A stretch of DNA of 11,282 nt, from NCBI GenBank assembly GCA_043228905.1, contig JBHGNT010001172.1, positions 1-11,282 of the forward strand, written 5' to 3'. Position 1 is the first letter of the stretch. Every line of letters starts with the position of its first letter. Under the pieces are notes generated by a model, which worked only from the letters and a program-made list of their open reading frames with translations, made no database searches and was not told the DNA's origin. Source of the DNA: Azolla caroliniana (Eukaryota > Plantae > Polypodiophyta). This document shows, in pieces, positions 692 to 11,282 of the stretch. Made by a program: the position numbers and the translations under genes.

Positions 692-909
692 GTAAGGTTT
701 TTTGCTAAGGATTTTGTTTAAAAAAAACTGTTATTTGCATATGTCTGAGAAAGGCCGTATTTGTGTTTGACATATAGATTAGTAGATTATATTGACCAGT
801 TTCAGTTTCATTATATTATAATGAGTGTGGTACATATAGCTAGATTTAAATAATAGAAACATTCATTACATGTGTGTTTCTCATATAGATTGAGAGTCAT
901 ATCGACAAT

Positions 910-1222
910 TGTTAGTACCGAGAGAACATGTCTTTATGAGGAGTCATGAGATCCAAAGGGGCAAAATAGGACATATGCATGAGTGGCGTGCATGAAGGAT
1001 ATGCAAAGAAGCTCCAAGGACTGTTAGCACTAAGGGAACATGTCTTTATTAAAAGGCATGAGATCCAGAAGGGACAGGTGCATTAGTGGTGTGCATGAAA
1101 GATGCACAAAGAAGCTCCAAGGACTGTTAGTATTGACGCAACATGTCTTTATTAAAAGTCATTGAGATCCAGAAGGGACAAGTGCATGTGTATGAAACAT
1201 ACTCAAAGAAGCTCCAAGGACT
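910..1222. repeat. Degenerate tandem repeat, 3 units (910-1021, 1022-1124, 1125-1221; 112/103/97 bp)
   Basis: Each unit starts TGTTAG and shares AACATGTCTTTAT (925, 1037, 1140), GAGATCCA and an identical 19-mer CAAAGAAGCTCCAAGGACT (1004, 1107, 1204). Confidence 0.92.
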
Positions 1223-1500
1223 AAAACTGTCTGAAATTAAAATTAATTTGGATCTATGAAGTGGTATGATATATCTGATAGGATATACAGAATGTGAAAG
1301 TCTATACAACTAAGTCATTTTAGGATGGCTGTCACTTGGAAGATGGTCTTGAGTGGAGTGCTTTTCTGAAGTCAACAATTTCAAGCCGAAACTGCCTATG
1401 GGTTTCGAGTCTCTCTGTTTCCAGAATCAGGGTGAAGTTATGCTCAACAATTCTCAATTGATGGCTCCCTGTGGGTGGGCATATCTATTTAAATCACCAG

Positions 1501-1732
1501 AACCTAAGTGTGTCTTGGTATTGCTTTGCGTTCAGCTTGATGGGAATTTTGCCCAGCACAGTACAATGACTTGACTGTCTCTGATCCCAGCACCAATGTA
1601 CAATATTGCTGTGCCTCCATCACACCTGTCAGTAATCATGTATTCACCGGTATAGAATTCTGGTGGGAACCACGGATCTCTATTTCCAGTGCCTAATCAT
1701 AATACAAGTTTGTAGTAAACTGCCTATTTAGA
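1501..1732 (+). repeat. 232-bp direct repeat, left copy (host intron sequence duplicated around the copia element)
   Basis: Identical to 6527-6758 except C1626/T6652 (constant offset 5026). Confidence 0.96.
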
Positions 1733-1966
1733 GGGATGTTTGACGGATCAGCTATTGAGAGATGACGTTCAGCAAACAGGACTGTAGTAGAGATGAGAGT
1801 AGAGACACACAGATCTTTGGTGTACCCAACCGTCTTGATTGGTACACAAGAAAAAAGAAAGTGGTGTGTTCACATTATAAAAGGAGGTGTCCTGTCCAAG
1901 TGAACAATGTGTTCACATATACGAATAATTACCTAATTTGTGAACTACGGGCCTTTACACCTAACA
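1730..1966 (-). repeat. 3' LTR (237 bp; about 11 nt missing at its outer U5 end and a 30-bp internal deletion)
   Basis: Matches 6260-6526 with no substitutions apart from one 30-bp gap; begins TGTTAG on the - strand next to the PPT. Confidence 0.95.
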
Positions 1967-1977
1967 ACCTCCCACTT
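1967..1977 (-). promoter_or_regulatory. Polypurine tract
   Basis: The - strand reads AAGTGGGAGGT immediately before the TG of the 3' LTR, about 20 nt after the pol stop. Confidence 0.88.
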
Positions 1978-1996
1978 AAAGGTCTGATGTGAACAT

Positions 1997-4900
1997 TCAA
2001 GTAACTCCCACTAACTGTATGCAATGCTCATGTTGAGCTTTGCCAAGACTTTTAGTGAGAATATCTGCAGGATTATCATGTGTTTTGATCTTGGTCAATG
2101 TGACTAGACCATCCTCCAAAACTTGTCTGATAAAGTGATGTCGCACATCAATGTGTTTGGTGCGCGAATGAAACATGGCATTCTTAGCCAGATACACAAC
2201 ACTCTGGCTATCACATCCTAACACAGGAGTACTAACAGACATGCCAAGATCTTCACCAAGTCTGCTGAGCCATATAGCTTCCTTTGAAGCTTCTGTAGCT
2301 GAAATATATTCAGCTTCAGTAGTACTCAGTGCTACAATCTTTTGCAATTTGGAGCACCAAGACACTGCTCCACCAGCAACTGTAAATATATACCCGCTAG
2401 TAGACTTACGTGTATCCAAGTCACCTGCCATGTCTGCATCACAATATCCCTGCAAATTTAATGCACCCTTCCCATAGCATAAACATTTTCTCTGTGTACC
2501 TTTAAGATACCTGAAAACACACTTGACAGCCTCCCAATGTGCTTTCCCGGGATTAGACATATAGCGACTAACAACTCCCACTGCATAAGCAATATCTGGA
2601 CGAGTAGCTACCATAGCATACATTAGAGAACCACATGCTGATGCATAAGGAATTCCCTTCATAGCATTGATTTCCATCTCATCCTTTGGACAATCAGCCT
2701 TGCTGAGTTTAAGATATGACGGCAAAGGAACTCCAAGAGACTTTGCTTCTGCCATATTAAATCTGTTAAGCACTTTTTCAATGTACTTTTCTTGTGACAA
2801 AAACAACAATTTGTCTTTTCTGTTTCTATTGATTCTCATGCCCAAAATATGCTCTGCATTTCCCAAATCTTTCATAGAGAAGACCAATTTCAGTTGATCT
2901 TTTAGAGCATCAAGACTAGTCTTTCTTTTCCCAGCTAGCAACATATCATCCACATATAGAACAAGTATGATAGGATTGTCATCGATATCCTTTTTCGTGT
3001 ATAAACAATGATCTGCATAGCTACGATCAAAGCCTTGAGAAAGCATAAAAGTATCAAACTTCTTATACCACTATCGTGGTGCTTGTTTTAGGCCATACAA
3101 GCTACGTTTTAGTTTGCATACCAAATGCTCCTTGTTAGAGACTACAAAACCCTCAGGTTGTTTCATGTAGATCTCTTCATCAATATCACCATGCAAAAAT
3201 GCGGTCTTTACATCCATTTGGTACAACTCCAAATTAAGCATTGCAGTGAGAGCAAATAGCACACGAAGTGTGGTCATCTTCACAACAGGAGAGAAGACCT
3301 CTTGGAAGTCAATACCTTCCTTCTGTGCATAACCCTTGGCAACTAATCTTGCCTTGTATTTTGGTTTCCCTTCAATTTCCTTTACCTTATAAACCCACTT
3401 ATTTGGAAGAGCTTTCCTTCCTTGAGGTAAGGACACAAGATCCCATGTATCATTTGCATATAAAGATTTTATTTCTTCTTGCATTGCAAGCTCCCACTTA
3501 CTACTAAGTTCACATGACATTGCCTCCTTATAAGTAAGAGGTTCACCCTCATCTGACAGCATGACATAATGCAAAGAGGGGTCATATCTATATACCTGCC
3601 TCCTTGAACGATTAGACCTACGTACCCAATGATCAGTATTTTCTGGGATTGGTTCTAAATCTGGAGGAAAATCATTTTCAGCACTTTCTGGCTGTTGCGA
3701 ACCATGTCCAGCATGTTGTTCGACATCTATATTTTGTTCTTCAGTACCTTCATCTTGTTGACCAATATCTTCATGAGCATCTCTTTGCTGTCCAACTTCT
3801 TCTGGCTCAAAGATAACCGGTTGACCATCATATTCAACCTTTGGTATAGCATCATGAGGTTTATTTTCAGATTTTGTGGATGGCTGTAATTGCTGAAATG
3901 TAACGCTCTTAGAGTTCCCAACAGAGGAACAAGCATTTTTCAGCAATTTTTCTTCATTAAAAACAACATCCCGGCTGCGTACAATTTTTCTGGACTGAGG
4001 TAACCAAATCCTATAGCCCATAAAAATGCCCATGGTGGACTTAGCATCGAGCTTATTTCTCAGCTCACTTCTAATGTGTACAAACGCATCACAACCGAAA
4101 ATTCGTAAATGGTCATATGAAGCTGGTTTGCCAGACCAAACCTCCTCAGGGATTCCATTTTTTAAGGACTTGTTGGGAGAACGATTACTCGCTCACACAA
4201 GGTCCTATTATACCTTTCTGCCACCCCATTTGATGAAGGGTTATATGGAGCAGTAAGCTCTCTTTTAATACCATGTAAGTCACAATAAGACTTAAATTCT
4301 GCAGATATAGACTCACCCCCATTATCTGTTCTGAGACATTTCAGTTTTGTCACTTTTTGAGTAGTCACAAATGCATGAAAAGATTTAAATGCATCAAATG
4401 CATCACCTTTTCTTTTCATCAAGTACACCCAAATCTTCCTAGAATAATCATCGATAAAGGAAATAAAATATGCAGCACCGCCCAAGGATTTTACAGGCAT
4501 GCTACATACATCAGAATGCACCAAATCTAGCACATTTGGTTTACGAGAGATACCAGAATAATAAGAATTTCTCACTTGTTTGCCAAATAGACAATCATTA
4601 CAAAAAACCAGCTTTGATCCTTTAACATCAAATCTTTTTAAAGCAAAAAGGATTTCAAGTCCTTTTTGGCTCATATGTCCTAATCTCTTATGCCAAAGCT
4701 CTAAACGAGAGTCGAATTCAGCAATAGCAAGAAACTTTCCAGGTAAAGCTTTGCATTGCAAACAGTACAGAGTGCCCTTTTTGCAACCTTTCACAATAAC
4801 CATAGATCCTTTCTTTAGTTTCCATAATCCACCACCGAATAATGTGGTGTAACCATGCAAATCCATCTGTCCTACAGATAGCAAACTTTTCTTTATGCCA

Positions 4901-6084
4901 GGTACATACCTAACATCTTTGAGCACAAGCTCTTGACCATTATCCAAAGACAAGTGTATGGTTCCAATACCATCAATATTGCAAGCACTATTGTTACCAA
5001 GATAAACTTTTCCATAACTGCCTGCATCAAATGTGGTAAAGCACTCCAAACATGGAGTAACATGAAAAGAAGCCCCAGAGTCTACTATCCATGTCTGTGT
5101 CAATCCATCATCGATTGACAATAAAGCATCAATAACATCTGTTTTGGTGATTTGCATGTCTTGAACATGAGCTATAAAGGCATCATCTGTAATACAAAGT
5201 ACATCACCATCTTCACCAGATAGGTCTTCAATGATAACATTTGAAGCCATATTAGCTTTCTCTGTTGTATTAAACTTATCCTCTTTGTTTTTCTTCTCTC
5301 CAACATTCTTCTTCCTTTCTAGTTCCATCTTCCAATATCTACAATCAGGTTTCTTATGACCTTTACGGCCACAATGATAGCAAGTGATATCTTGTTGTTT
5401 TCCTTTCCCTCTACTCTTACTTCTATTTCTTTGTCCTACATTTGGGTTCCTCTTATCATATCTCCCCCTAATATTGTATGCTGAACCACTACCTTCTCCG
5501 CTAGATTGTCTTCTAATCTCTTCACTGAGAATAGAGCCCCGCACACCATCGAAGGTCAAGGTGGGGCTATTAGATAGTGAAACAACTAATGTTTCCCACG
5601 AATCCGGTAAAGTCATAAGTAGGAAGATAACTTTGAGCTTGTCATCAAAAGCTGGTAATCCTGAATCTTGTAGTTGGGAGAGAGTACCTGTGAATAAAGA
5701 TAGATGCTCTGTTGCACCTTTCGACTCATCAAGCCTCATACTGACAAGTTTTCTCATCAAATGCACCTGATTCACAGGAGTAGTATTCTCGTAAGTTTTC
5801 TTAAGTTTCTCCCAAACTTGATGGGCAGTAGTCAAGCCCTTTACATCTACAAGAATTTCATCAGAAACAGCCATTTTAATATATGTAATGGCTTTCTTAT
5901 TCAGAGTGTTCCAAGCATCATTTTCCATGCTCTCTGGTTTCTTTTCTACAAGAGCATCTTCACAATCTCTTAGAAAGAGGATGCCCAGCATACGCTCTTT
6001 CCACAATTCGAAACCTTTTCCATCAAATCTCTTGATTTCAAAGAGGTTTTTCACTTCAACTGAAGTGGAGGCCATTGCTCCCAA
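1997..6084 (-). pseudogene. Copia gag-pol polyprotein, disrupted (ORF pieces 4162-6084, 3071-4033 extendable to 4186, 1997-3046)
   Basis: Frameshifting junction at about 4186 (LCERV joined to NRSP in another frame, with the usual intervening integrase helix absent). Premature TAG at 3071-3073 in GLKQAPR*WY; the frame continues after it through RT YVDD and RNase H. Confidence 0.94.
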
Positions 6085-6234
6085 GATTTATGACAGATGC
6101 CTTCAGAAATTGAGCAGAATACCAATAGGAAAGGGTCTGACAGATTTTATTTTATTTTTTATTTTTATTTTTAAATCTGTGTTTTCTGCTGATTCTGAAT
6201 CTAAAGAAAAACAGCAAAGTAGAGGAAAGAGATT

Positions 6235-6248
6235 TGGCTCTGATACCA
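6235..6248 (-). promoter_or_regulatory. Primer-binding site for initiator tRNA-Met
   Basis: The - strand reads TGGTATCAGAGCCA, complementary to the 3' end of plant tRNA-iMet, directly inside the 5' LTR. Confidence 0.95.
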
Positions 6249-6526
6249 GTTAAAGGTAAAGAGGGATGTTTGACGGATCAGCTATTGAGAGATGACGTTC
6301 AGCAAACAGGACTGTAGTAGAGATGAGAGTAGAGACACACAGATCTTTGGTGTACCCAACCGTCTTGATTGGTACACAAGAAAAAAGAAGGTTATTATAT
6401 TAGTTAACCTTACATAGAAAGTGGTGTGTTCACATTATAAAAGGAGGTGTCCTGTCCAAGTGAACAATGTGTTCACATATACGAATAATTACCTAATTTG
6501 TGAACTACGGGCCTTTACACCTAACA
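6249..6526 (-). repeat. 5' LTR (about 276-278 bp)
   Basis: The - strand starts TGTTAGGTG at 6526 and abuts the PBS at 6248. The inner boundary is uncertain by 2 nt because there is no terminal CA. Confidence 0.93.
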
Positions 6527-6758
6527 AACCTAAGTGTGTCTTGGTATTGCTTTGCGTTCAGCTTGATGGGAATTTTGCCCAGCACAGTACAATGACTTGA
6601 CTGTCTCTGATCCCAGCACCAATGTACAATATTGCTGTGCCTCCATCACACTTGTCAGTAATCATGTATTCACCGGTATAGAATTCTGGTGGGAACCACG
6701 GATCTCTATTTCCAGTGCCTAATCATAATACAAGTTTGTAGTAAACTGCCTATTTAGA
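6527..6758 (+). repeat. 232-bp direct repeat, right copy
   Basis: Identical to 1501-1732 except one base; starts immediately after the LTR end ...CCTAACA (6526). Confidence 0.96.
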
Positions 6759-7051
6759 ATTAACAATCCCGCTGACTGCACATATCAGTGAAGAGATAAG
6801 GGCATCAATTAATCTCATGACCGTCATGTAATTTAGCTGTGATTCCCCATGAACATCACGTGAATCTGTGTTTTCATATTGAATTGGTTTTATACATCCA
6901 CCTTTATTCCTTATTCAGTCATTTCAAAATTCAACCAGTGCCTCCATGTAAGCTTTCATTTAATCTTTCCTTTTGTATGTGTGAATATTTTGTGTTATAT
7001 ATTTGATTATTGCATTATTTTCCATCTGATGTCCATTTGCCTTTTGTTTAG

Positions 7052-8161: not shown

Positions 8162-9056
8162 TCATAACCCTCCTCTGTAGTTTATTGAACATACCGCCTG
8201 TATGCCACTTAAGCTGTATTAATTTCATCAGTAAGTTAATCAGCACATTGAACTTTGAGTATGTCTATCAGCAGTTTCCCTCATAGCATTGAGGGTCTAG
8301 CAAGAATTTGAAGCATATTTGGTTCATGATGTCAATAATACAGTGTAAGACTCCAAAACCTTCTGTGAAAAATGGCCATCTTCTTCTGACAGAACAGTGA
8401 CCTATGTGATGTTCCTTTGTCTCAGCTTCTGAATTTTTTCCTTTTCCTTGTTTATAGATAAAAGAGTACTCTACATGAACATAATAATGACTAAGTTGAT
8501 GGAATCTAGGCTCATTTTTTTATAGCCAGATGCATCAAAAGCTTAATGTTTTAATTCCCTAAATGTAGGCTTTATAATAAACTTGCCACACATCTACGGA
8601 TAATTTACTGTTTTTTAGAGAGAAGGTGCAAATAGGCAAAAATAGATGTATAGGTTTAACTTGTAAGAGAAGTAGAAACCAGCATGGTACAACTCTAAAT
8701 AAAGTCACTTTTGCATGAGCATTTGTTAGTGACAGGTTATAACTAATGCTATTGAGATATTGCTTGCTTGCTTTTTTGAGTGCTCCATTGGAAGACAGTT
8801 TGCAATAGAAAAGTAAGCAGTTTTCCTTGTCATTGATGTTATTGGTATTGATTGATTAAATTTTCTTCAGTTCAATGACCATGGTTTTTAGGGAGGCTGC
8901 AGGCACAAGTTCTCTTTTATCAGGTGTCTATATAATGTGAATATAAAACAAATTTGATGGAGATTTTAAAATTTCCACTTCGAGCATGAAACATTAATGA
9001 TCGTTGCTTTTCAGCATAGTTGCATGAAAAAAGGAGATTGCATTCATAGTTGTTTT

Positions 9057-11240
9057 TGGCTACAATTTGGGAAGGGCCAAGATCATGATGGATTGGTAGG
9101 TGAGCACTTTATCTATGCCCGTGACACCTTGCTCCCATTGCTAGCACACATCTTTAATAGAGCCATGTGGGAAGGTTTCCCTACTAGATGGACTCAGCAT
9201 ACCATTGTGCCAATCCTCAAGAGTGGAGACCCCATGATGCCAAGCAACTATAGGACAATCATGATTGGCCATTACTTAGCTAAACTATATGGGTCGATTC
9301 TAGAATCAGAATTGAGTATATGGGCAGAGCAGAATGGCTGCCGTTCAGTTGGATAGGCAGGCTTTCGGAAGGGGTTCACAACTTTAGATCACATATTCAC
9401 CCTCCGGGCCCTTATTGAGGAGGGCAGAGCCCACAATAAGAGGATTTATTGCTGCTTTGTGGATTTTCGAAAAGCCTTTGACACTGTGCCATGTGCATGG
9501 CTTATGCAGCAGCTAGAAGCCCTTGGTGTTCCTATAGATATGCAATGGGGAATCTATGCACTCTATGAATCCGTGTCAGGAAAAGTGTTGTCTTCTAGGG
9601 GCTTGTCAGAGGTTGTGGCTAGAACAATTGCAGTAAAGCAAGGATGCCCACTATCCCCCACTCTCTTCGGTCTCTATATAGATGAGGTATCACATTACAT
9701 AGAGAGATTCGGGGGTTCCGGAGCACACCTAGCAGGTATAGCTATACAAATATTACTATATGCTGATGAGATTGTGCTGATTTCTGACTCTCCGGAGGGA
9801 CTACAAAGACATCTAAATGCCTTAAAACTATTTTGTACGGACAAAGGTTTGTCAATCAACATGGACAAAACTAAAGTGATGGTGTTTAACACCACTCAAG
9901 CATGGGTAACGAGATCAGAACCAGAATTCTTCTTGGGGAAGGAAAAGGTGGAATACACACACTCCTACACATACCTAGAAGTAACATTTATAGGACCTAG
10001 GTTCTCCTTACAGGAGGCTGCTTGTGCCCGACTTTCTCGGGGATATGCAGCCCTTGGTGCTCTTGAGAGACAATGTGAACATTTGCAGTTCCAAGAGCCG
10101 CGGACTAAGCTATGGTTATTTGATACACTTGTCACACCACCTCTTCTCTATGGAGTAGAAAATTGGGGACCGAGTCTTAACAAGGAAAATCATTGGAAAG
10201 ATTTAGAGAGACCTTTAGTGTCAATGATTGCTCACATGATAAGGAGCAAAGCATCTGTGCCCCACGATATAATCCGGGCAGAGATGGGAGCAGCACCTAT
10301 AATAACCGAGGCATTGTTCTGATCAGTGACATTTATCCAACGTCTTTGGGAGCTCCCTAAACGAAGGTACCCAAGGTTGGCACTTATGTCATCAAGACAA
10401 CTGGCTGAAAATAGAGACACTCACTGTTGGTATGCTGAAATGTAGCAATGGTTCGAGTCACATGGCATGAGTATAAATGCACTACCCCCGTTCCAATATA
10501 GCTTGGATTGTCCCCATCTAAATATGACCACTAGACCACTATAAGACACACTTCTTACATACATCGGAGGATGGATTCGTCATCAAGCCACCTTATATTG
10601 ACATACATCTATCCTATGCGCTACGTAGTGTGATAGGGCAGTTGCGAACTTCATCAGATCAGCTATAGATTGAGGTAGGTAGATATACACGACTACCTCT
10701 AGAAGAGAGAATTTGCCGATTGTGTCATCAAGGAGTGGAATTTGAGGAACACTATGTTTGTCATTGTAGTGTCTTTTATGAAATTAGAGGGAGATACCAT
10801 TGCCTCTTTAAACAAGGCTTTGGCCCACTACGCAAGGTAATGGAATATGAGGGCCAACGATGCCTAGGACTTTTCTTGCTAGAGCTCAAGAGACATCGGG
10901 AAAAGTTGTTGAAGAATACAGCCACACAAACTCATCCACAAAGAACAATCACAACTTTCTTTAGCCTATCACTCCTACTAATCCTACAAGTCCATCACGG
11001 GATACACAAATGGGCTCCAGGCCAAGACATAACAAAGGGGTTACAATTGATCGGGCTATAGCAATTTGCCGTGCACGTAGGCTCCGGCCCCATGGACCAC
11101 GACCTCGACACCCTTGTCATCGACAAATAAAAGCCATTATCTCCCGCCATCGTAGGTGCTTCCCTCGCTTCGGAGGCATTTCCATTCTGGACCAATCTAT
11201 GCTAGAGATCTTTCGAAGACAAAAGCTACAATATACCTAA
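9057..11240 (+). pseudogene. LINE ORF2 remnant (RT + CCHC zinc knuckle + C-terminal tail)
   Basis: In-frame stops at 9354, 10320, 10443 and 10666; frameshifts near 10530 and about 10966; catalytic YADD changed to YADE (9759-9770); zinc knuckle at 10714-10767; terminal TAA 11238-11240. Confidence 0.88.
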
Positions 11241-11282
11241 CTTGAGAATCTCACATGTGCCAAAAACCAGATTCCCTCGTTT
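9057..11282 (+). mobile_element. 5'-truncated non-LTR retrotransposon (LINE, RTE-X-like), decayed, sense orientation in an MRE11 intron; 3' end beyond the window
   Basis: Non-LTR RT motifs GK..D.DG, KSGD..PSNYR.I, G(Q)AGFR, VDFRKAFD, KQGCPLSPTLF, YADE and KTKVM, and a C-terminal IEVGRY...CRLC-x8-H-x4-C. No endonuclease domain upstream. The 5' boundary is approximate and the clade call is from motif recall. Confidence 0.9.

What the first reader, a model, noticed from the sequence alone, without database searches (positions are those of the whole stretch)
1501..6758. Copia element flanked by a 232-bp target duplication: probable fossil of one-ended integration finished by host end-joining
Seen: the order is D-LTR-internal-LTR-D, where D (1501-1732 = 6527-6758) has one mismatch and no separate 5-bp TSD is evident. 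The right junction is exact (LTR TG end at 6526, then D). At the left junction the LTR lacks its outer ~11 nt, and AGA (1730-1732) belongs to both D and the LTR, a 3-nt microhomology. Established: copia integrase makes ~5-bp TSDs, and retroviral cDNAs with one defective or blocked end give one normal junction plus one aberrant, often microhomology-joined junction with large target duplications. Inference: this is a natural plant example, inside a gene for the MRE11 repair nuclease.
Basis: partly seen in the sequence, partly recalled or inferred. Interest (0 to 1): 0.8.

Follow-up and report, generated by a model that had tools for sequence, protein, structure and literature searches.

The report
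Half-failed retrotransposon insertions duplicate host DNA
A young plant jumping gene sits between two copies of a 232-base stretch of host DNA instead of the usual 5 bases, and two other copies of its family show the same pattern, likely because only one end was inserted by the element's own enzyme and host repair joined the other end.

Summary
A copia element lies antisense in an MRE11 intron, flanked by a 232-bp duplication D (1 mismatch). The U3 (TG) junction is exact; the U5 junction lacks 9 nt of LTR and has a 3-nt microhomology. A second haplotype (C13) has the same structure, and short-read contigs of two studies hold the D-to-LTR junction, so misassembly is very unlikely. Of 51 two-LTR family copies with readable ends, 41 have 5-6-bp TSDs and 3 have long duplications (232, 236, ~109 bp), each with the U3 end complete. 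Best explanation (0.68): one-ended integrase joining finished by host polymerase and repair, as shown for HIV/ASLV. Integrase-free capture at a break and post-insertion repair from the empty homolog are not excluded. The empty allele is not proven, because graph pruning gave a false 'empty' contig in a carrier sample. The family has non-canonical TG..TA ends, but canonical sister families show a similar rate (1 of 17). Long duplications are known around HERV-K; my ten searches found no plant report. The scan noted similar cases in other genomes. The MRE11 location looks incidental.

The parts
692..7051 (+). MRE11 intron that holds the insertion (6360 bp; 1334 bp without element and one D)
   Evidence: GT..AG ends and flanking exons read from sequence; upstream exon 142-297 matches MRE11; only this locus and its C13 haplotype found
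1501..1732 (+). Left copy of the 232-bp host duplication D
   Evidence: isolated 232-nt unitig in run X3
1730..1732 (+). AGA microhomology at the irregular (U5-side) junction
   Evidence: shared by D end 6756-6758 and LTR 6260-6262
1730..1966 (-). 3' LTR, lacking its outer 9 nt (U5, TA end); 30-bp internal deletion private to this haplotype
   Evidence: 0 substitutions in 237 aligned bases against the other LTR
1967..1977 (-). 2-nt spacer and polypurine tract
   Evidence: sequence; conserved next to 3' LTRs across the family
1997..6087 (-). Copia gag-pol (gag, protease barrel, GAG-pre-integrase, integrase, SH3, RVT_2), broken into three open frames
   Evidence: ORFs 4162-6087, 3071-4192, 1997-3070; Pfam hits in copia order
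6237..6250 (-). Primer-binding site (initiator-Met type, label recalled) and 2-nt spacer GT
   Evidence: sequence; spacer GT in 41 and AT in 3 of 44 family LTRs
6251..6526 (-). 5' LTR, complete, 276 bp, TG..TA termini; exact junction to D at 6526/6527
6527..6758 (+). Right copy of D, continuous with the rest of the intron

Best explanation
This copia element is flanked by a 232-bp duplication of its target, with one exact end and one trimmed, microhomology-joined end, likely because integrase joined only the U3 end and host enzymes inserted the U5 end. Inferred steps: (1) integrase joins the CA-3' end of the + strand to the target at D's first base; (2) the free U5 end is trimmed by 9 nt of LTR (11 if it was unprocessed); (3) its 3' end pairs with AGA 232 bp further along the target and primes host synthesis back through D; (4) the copied D anneals or recombines with the upstream flank, giving D-element-D. 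Shown: the structure, its presence on two haplotypes and in read contigs, its recurrence in the family, and similar ages of D pairs and LTR pairs. Not shown: the order of events and which host enzymes acted.
For: The structure matches the HIV/ASLV one-bad-end products: one normal junction, a truncated end with short homology, duplications of hundreds of bp (PMC5041404). 3 of 51 family copies have long duplications (232, 236, ~109 bp); all three keep the U3 end complete to CA, with U5-side changes of -9, +2 and -12 plus filler. All three U5-side joints lie within 12 nt of the terminus, which suits a free cDNA end better than a random later break. In the C15 copy the 2 extra nt (AT) sit where the unprocessed spacer (GT or AT) would be. 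Ages agree: D vs LTR differences are 1/232 vs 0/237, 7/236 vs 6/274 and 12/109 vs 17/261 (Fisher p 0.49, 0.59, 0.14). The two haplotypes each carry a different single D1/D2 mismatch, so both D copies and both LTRs were identical in their ancestor. Losses of 1-25 nt at outer ends: 5 on the U5 side, 0 on the U3 side (p 0.06).
Against: The C15 copy's 'exact' junction can also be read as an unprocessed end joined by a 3-nt microhomology (3 of 43 family right flanks start with AC), which fits integrase-free capture. In the window the first base of D is also the next cDNA base (1-nt ambiguity). A sister-family case (C2, ~57 bp) has both ends imprecise. The end asymmetry is not significant once the window itself (p 0.125) and the gap-adjacent copy (p 0.25) are dropped, and one copy lacks 82 nt at the U3 end. 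Repair from the empty homolog soon after insertion would give the same sequence and ages. The empty allele is unproven.
Confidence: 0.68

Rival explanations
1. Integrase-free capture: a linear cDNA patched a staggered chromosome break whose overhangs were filled in, giving D-cDNA-D with both ends joined by host end-joining.
For: The C15 copy can be read with both unprocessed dinucleotides kept. The sister-family C2 case is imprecise at both ends. The window has 1 nt of ambiguity at its 'exact' end. Tandem duplications at staggered breaks in plants are recalled (search listing only).
Against: In the window and C9 the U3 end stops at CA (0-1 nt ambiguity) while the U5 end loses 9-12 nt of LTR. 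Symmetric end-joining would need that by chance twice.
Confidence: 0.13
2. A normal insertion with a 5-bp TSD was later broken at its U5 junction and repaired by copying 227 more bases from the empty homolog or sister, then rejoined through AGA.
For: It gives exactly the same final sequence, and the same ages if it happened while the insertion was hemizygous. The family's copies gather repair scars quickly: the two haplotypes differ by internal indels of 1-163 bp, and one copy has a local 357-bp junction duplication.
Against: It needs a break within 0-12 nt of the same terminus at three loci. It does not explain 2 extra spacer-like nt in C15. Both haplotypes already share the final junction.
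Confidence: 0.13
3. Two normal insertions 232 bp apart recombined, or the element entered a pre-existing D-D tandem repeat.
For: This is the standard plant explanation for TSD-less elements (PMC4668562, PMC3701649) and the 'pseudo-TSD' model for HERV-K. D pairs are slightly, not significantly, more diverged than LTR pairs at all three loci.
Against: It predicts two complete termini or a separate 5-bp TSD; neither is present. Paired insertions within 110-240 bp at three loci, for roughly a hundred LTRs in 523 Mb, are very improbable. D is single-locus.
Confidence: 0.04
4. Assembly artefact at a heterozygous insertion.
For: The window is a whole small unplaced contig duplicating a C13 locus.
Against: C13 is a separately diverged haplotype with the same junctions. 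X3 resolves D as a 232-nt unitig with a D-to-LTR branch, and X4 and X6 also hold that branch.
Confidence: 0.02

Closest known systems
Aberrant one-ended integration of HIV-1 and ASLV DNA (Varadarajan et al. 2016, PMC5041404; abstract, passages and whole Discussion read)
   Same: One normal integrase junction; the other end often truncated, with short homology and host duplications of hundreds of bp; one poor DNA end is enough to cause it.
   Different: Those were induced by drugs or mutations in cultured cells with the target site known. Here the events are natural, inherited, in a plant copia family, and the route is inferred from the end product.
HERV-K (HML-2) loci with long TSDs (Kahyo et al. 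2017, PMC5488345; parts 1-3 of 4 of the text read, supplements not read)
   Same: Natural LTR insertions flanked by 61-450-bp duplications, including 250 and 206 bp; 8 entries over 10 bp among 451 putative TSDs.
   Different: Animal endogenous retrovirus, mostly solo LTRs; pre-integration alleles PCR-validated for two loci; in the text I read they discuss recombination models, not end asymmetry.
Non-canonical Copia LTR elements, TGTA motif class (LTR_retriever, 10.1101/137141, passages) and tomato TARE1 (TA..CA; PMC3701649, passages)
   Same: Short LTR (276 bp against a mean of 272), non-TGCA termini, 5-bp TSD, genic insertion.
   Different: No long flank duplications were mentioned in the passages read; TSD-less copies were ascribed to recombination and set aside.
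Plant 'intact elements without TSD' (PMC4668562, passages)
   Same: Two LTRs, no 4-6-bp TSD; this locus would be filed there.
   Different: Here 3 of the 9 gap-free copies without a short TSD carry a long target duplication, which inter-element recombination does not predict.

Membership tests
Ty1/copia LTR retrotransposon | gag-PR-IN-RT order with RVT_2 | tested here: met
   Pfam hits in that order on the minus strand
Ty1/copia LTR retrotransposon | Two direct LTRs with PBS and PPT | tested here: met
Ty1/copia LTR retrotransposon | 4-6-bp TSD from concerted integration | tested here: not met
   Not at this locus; met in 41 of 51 family copies
Non-canonical TG..TA Copia | LTR termini TG..TA directly flanked by 5-bp TSD in most copies | tested here: met
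   sister families have TG..CA after the same 2-nt spacer
One-ended (aberrant) integration product | One junction exactly at the CA-3' end | tested here: met
   6526/6527, with 1 nt of ambiguity
One-ended (aberrant) integration product | Other end truncated or unprocessed, with short homology to the appended host DNA | tested here: met
   9 nt lost, AGA shared; chance about 4%
One-ended (aberrant) integration product | Duplicated DNA was single-copy before insertion | tested here: inconclusive
   X2 has a one-D contig on an outgroup haplotype, but the same join appears falsely in X1, whose sample carries the junction
One-ended (aberrant) integration product | Duplication formed during integration, not later | tested here: inconclusive
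   Ages agree at three loci, but early post-insertion repair would agree too
One-ended (aberrant) integration product | Dependence on integrase for one end and host polymerase or repair for the other | not testable with these tools
   Needs de novo insertions in integrase and repair mutants

The most novel reading that the evidence does not exclude
The family's mutated U5 terminus (TA instead of CA) is a natural 'bad end' that integrase often fails to join. A few percent of its insertions are then finished by host repair, and a sizeable share of plant 'LTR elements without TSD' are half-failed integrations that duplicate or delete host DNA, not recombination products. Hints: 1-25-nt end losses 5 U5 vs 0 U3; large truncations 10 vs 5 on the same side (p 0.30, uneven ascertainment); TARE1 is also more often deleted at its TA end (67 vs 45, my p 0.047). 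Against: canonical sister families show 1 of 17.
Probability: 0.22. Interest if true: 0.65.

Novelty: new member of a known kind. Interest (0 to 1): 0.42.

Why it matters
Plant LTR finders require a 4-6-bp TSD, and an Arabidopsis long-read study collected only TSDs under 15 bp, so this outcome is systematically missed or filed as recombination. If about 4% of insertions (2 of 50 without the window; 95% CI 0.5-14%) end this way, retrotransposition itself makes 0.1-0.2-kb host duplications and probably deletions. The flanking repeats could also allow precise loss of the element, which would mimic an empty allele. The family offers a ready test of whether non-canonical termini cost integration fidelity. 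The mechanism is known from retroviruses, so the surprise is moderate.

Tried and rejected
Empty allele from read contigs: X1 and X2 join 1626 to 6653, skipping 5026. X4 and X6, from the same sample as X1, hold the D-to-LTR junction, so X1's join is rejected as graph pruning and X2's is only a hint. Zero shared D or LTR differences would still have P 0.22-0.37 if the insertion predated X2's split (rough estimate). X3's ~10%-diverged allele lacks the stretch around the insertion point and cannot show the pre-insertion site. 'TA end raises the rate': 2 of 50 vs 1 of 17 in sister families, Fisher p 1.0. Dropped from the long-duplication count: C17 0.50 Mb (63-bp match beside an assembly gap, kept in n as unresolved), C12 0.09 Mb (normal TSD in a tandem array), C8 10.85 Mb (match is an older LTR), C22 8.97 Mb (later tandem segmental copies). 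No flank duplication was found for 21 truncated, solo or otherwise irregular copies within 2-23 kb of held flank, nor for the C11 copy, whose right flank is single-copy. Many PPT hits had no partner LTR in the held DNA and were not scored; 9 and 6 pattern matches were not listed. No causal link to MRE11 was found. Literature searches found no plant LTR element with a 100-bp-scale target duplication; most subscription journals and all supplements went unseen.

Full report
Observation. D (1501-1732 and 6527-6758) is 232 bp with one mismatch and sharp edges. Between the copies lies a minus-strand copia element with gag, protease, integrase and RVT_2 domains in copia order, broken into three frames. 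It sits in a 6360-bp intron (1334 bp without the element and one D) of MRE11 (exon 142-297, E 5e-22). Family copies fix the LTR at 6251-6526 with TG..TA termini and a 2-nt spacer between PBS and LTR. The left LTR therefore lacks 9 nt of LTR, or 11 counted from an unprocessed cDNA end. AGA is shared by D and the LTR; a microhomology this long has about 4% chance at a random joint.

Is it real? The window is a whole small contig. D and the MRE11 exon occur only here and on C13. C13 is a second haplotype: 10 substitutions in the flanks, 24 in the element's internal part, and several private indels, but the same two junctions. Each haplotype has a different single D1/D2 mismatch, so the D copies and the LTRs were identical in their ancestor. 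In read contigs, X3 has D as an isolated 232-nt unitig at depth 18 against 9-14 for most flank pieces, with loose ends matching the upstream flank and window 1733 onward. X4 and X6 also carry the D-to-LTR joint. These are two studies, and either may be the source of the assembly.

Empty allele. X1 and X2 have single contigs that skip exactly 5026 bases and keep one D. X1 shares its sample with X4 and X6, which carry the junction, so contig simplification can fake this join. X2's haplotype is an outgroup to both carrier haplotypes (it shares some sites with each and has about 12 private ones), which fits a pre-insertion allele but does not prove it.

Family survey. I located LTR, PPT and PBS matches, fetched about 1.6 Mb around them including N-filled gaps and read both outer junctions. 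The tally below is by hand from those outputs. Of 51 two-LTR copies of the TG..TA family with both ends readable, 37 have a 5-bp TSD (one with a mismatch), 4 a 6-bp TSD, 3 a long duplication, 6 neither, and 1 lies beside a gap. The long cases are: this locus; C15 3.92-3.93 Mb (236 bp, LTR complete, 2 extra nt AT before it); and C9 17.63 Mb (~109 bp, 12 nt lost, 7-11 nt filler). All keep the U3 end complete. Without the window the rate is 2 of 50 (CI 0.5-14%). D and LTR divergences agree at each locus. In 17 scorable copies of canonical TG..CA sister families, one has a ~57-bp duplication with both ends imprecise, so the rate is no different (p 1.0). Losses of 1-25 nt at outer ends are 5 U5 vs 0 U3 (p 0.06; 0.125 without the window; 0.25 without the gap copy as well), and one copy lacks 82 nt at U3. 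The survey is incomplete and biased to copies matching exact patterns.

Mechanism. For HIV and ASLV, when integrase can insert only one end, the free 3' end is often truncated, primes on a short homology in nearby host DNA, and is joined by recombination. This gives duplications of hundreds to thousands of bp or deletions, depending on the side (PMC5041404). The window fits this point by point, and the C11 copy (3 nt lost, no TSD, no duplication) would be the deletion outcome. The steps are inferred from end products. Two rivals remain. Integrase-free capture at a staggered break fits C15, whose U3 joint can be read as an unprocessed end with a 3-nt microhomology (3 of 43 right flanks begin with AC), and fits the sister-family case. 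It fits the window and C9 less well. Post-insertion repair from the empty homolog gives the same sequence but needs breaks within 12 nt of the same terminus three times. Paired insertions with recombination, and misassembly, are close to excluded.

Comparison with the known. Natural long duplications flank HERV-K loci (250, 206, 111, 450 bp; PMC5488345). TGTA is a listed non-canonical Copia motif. Plant studies ascribe TSD-less elements to inter-element recombination; a 9-bp TSD was called unusually long in Arabidopsis; three Drosophila LTR families gave somatic TSDs of median 23-26 bp. Ten searches found no plant case at this scale, within a library lacking most subscription journals. Earlier notes of this scan describe similar single cases in other genomes; I did not test them, and my reading was set before I saw them.

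Verdict. The feature is real and recurs within its family. The mechanism is likely a known retroviral failure mode seen in a plant copia element. The MRE11 site is probably incidental: non-canonical Copia favour genic sites, and no data link the event to MRE11 activity. Interest 0.42.

Noticed in passing
window 8970-11282 (continues on C13, L037): A degenerate non-LTR (LINE-type) reverse-transcriptase element lies in a later intron of the same MRE11 gene (RVT_1). Both assembled haplotypes of the only MRE11 locus found carry large intronic elements.
   Followed up: partly
window 910-1222: Three degenerate ~100-110-bp tandem units in the same intron.
   Followed up: no
window element vs C13 927700-932783: The two haplotypes of one young insertion already differ by internal indels of 1-163 bp, and the element diverges about twice as fast as its flanks (0.5% vs 0.26%).
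   Followed up: partly
L044, L076, L089, L104: Four family copies have 6-bp instead of 5-bp TSDs; three end in T, the base that precedes the U5 terminus in the cDNA.
   Followed up: partly
L056 (C7 16.92 Mb): Complete element without TSD whose flanks are 9-nt inverted copies of each other; unexplained.
   Followed up: partly
L075 (C13 14.48 Mb): Very young copy (LTR 99.6% to the window's) nested in an older element and lacking its whole 3' part, with no flank duplication in 23 kb.
   Followed up: partly
Runs X1, X4, X6 on window D: Logan contigs of one sample prune different edges around D, giving a false 'empty allele' in one run; a caution for presence/absence calls from such contigs.
   Followed up: yes
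Run X3, window 1364 to 6703: X3 holds a ~10%-diverged second allele with no element and without the stretch equivalent to 1365-1676.
   Followed up: no
L095 (C19 5.58 Mb): Local 357-bp tandem duplication spanning the flank and part of the 3' LTR of an element with a normal TSD; a post-insertion event of a different shape.
   Followed up: no
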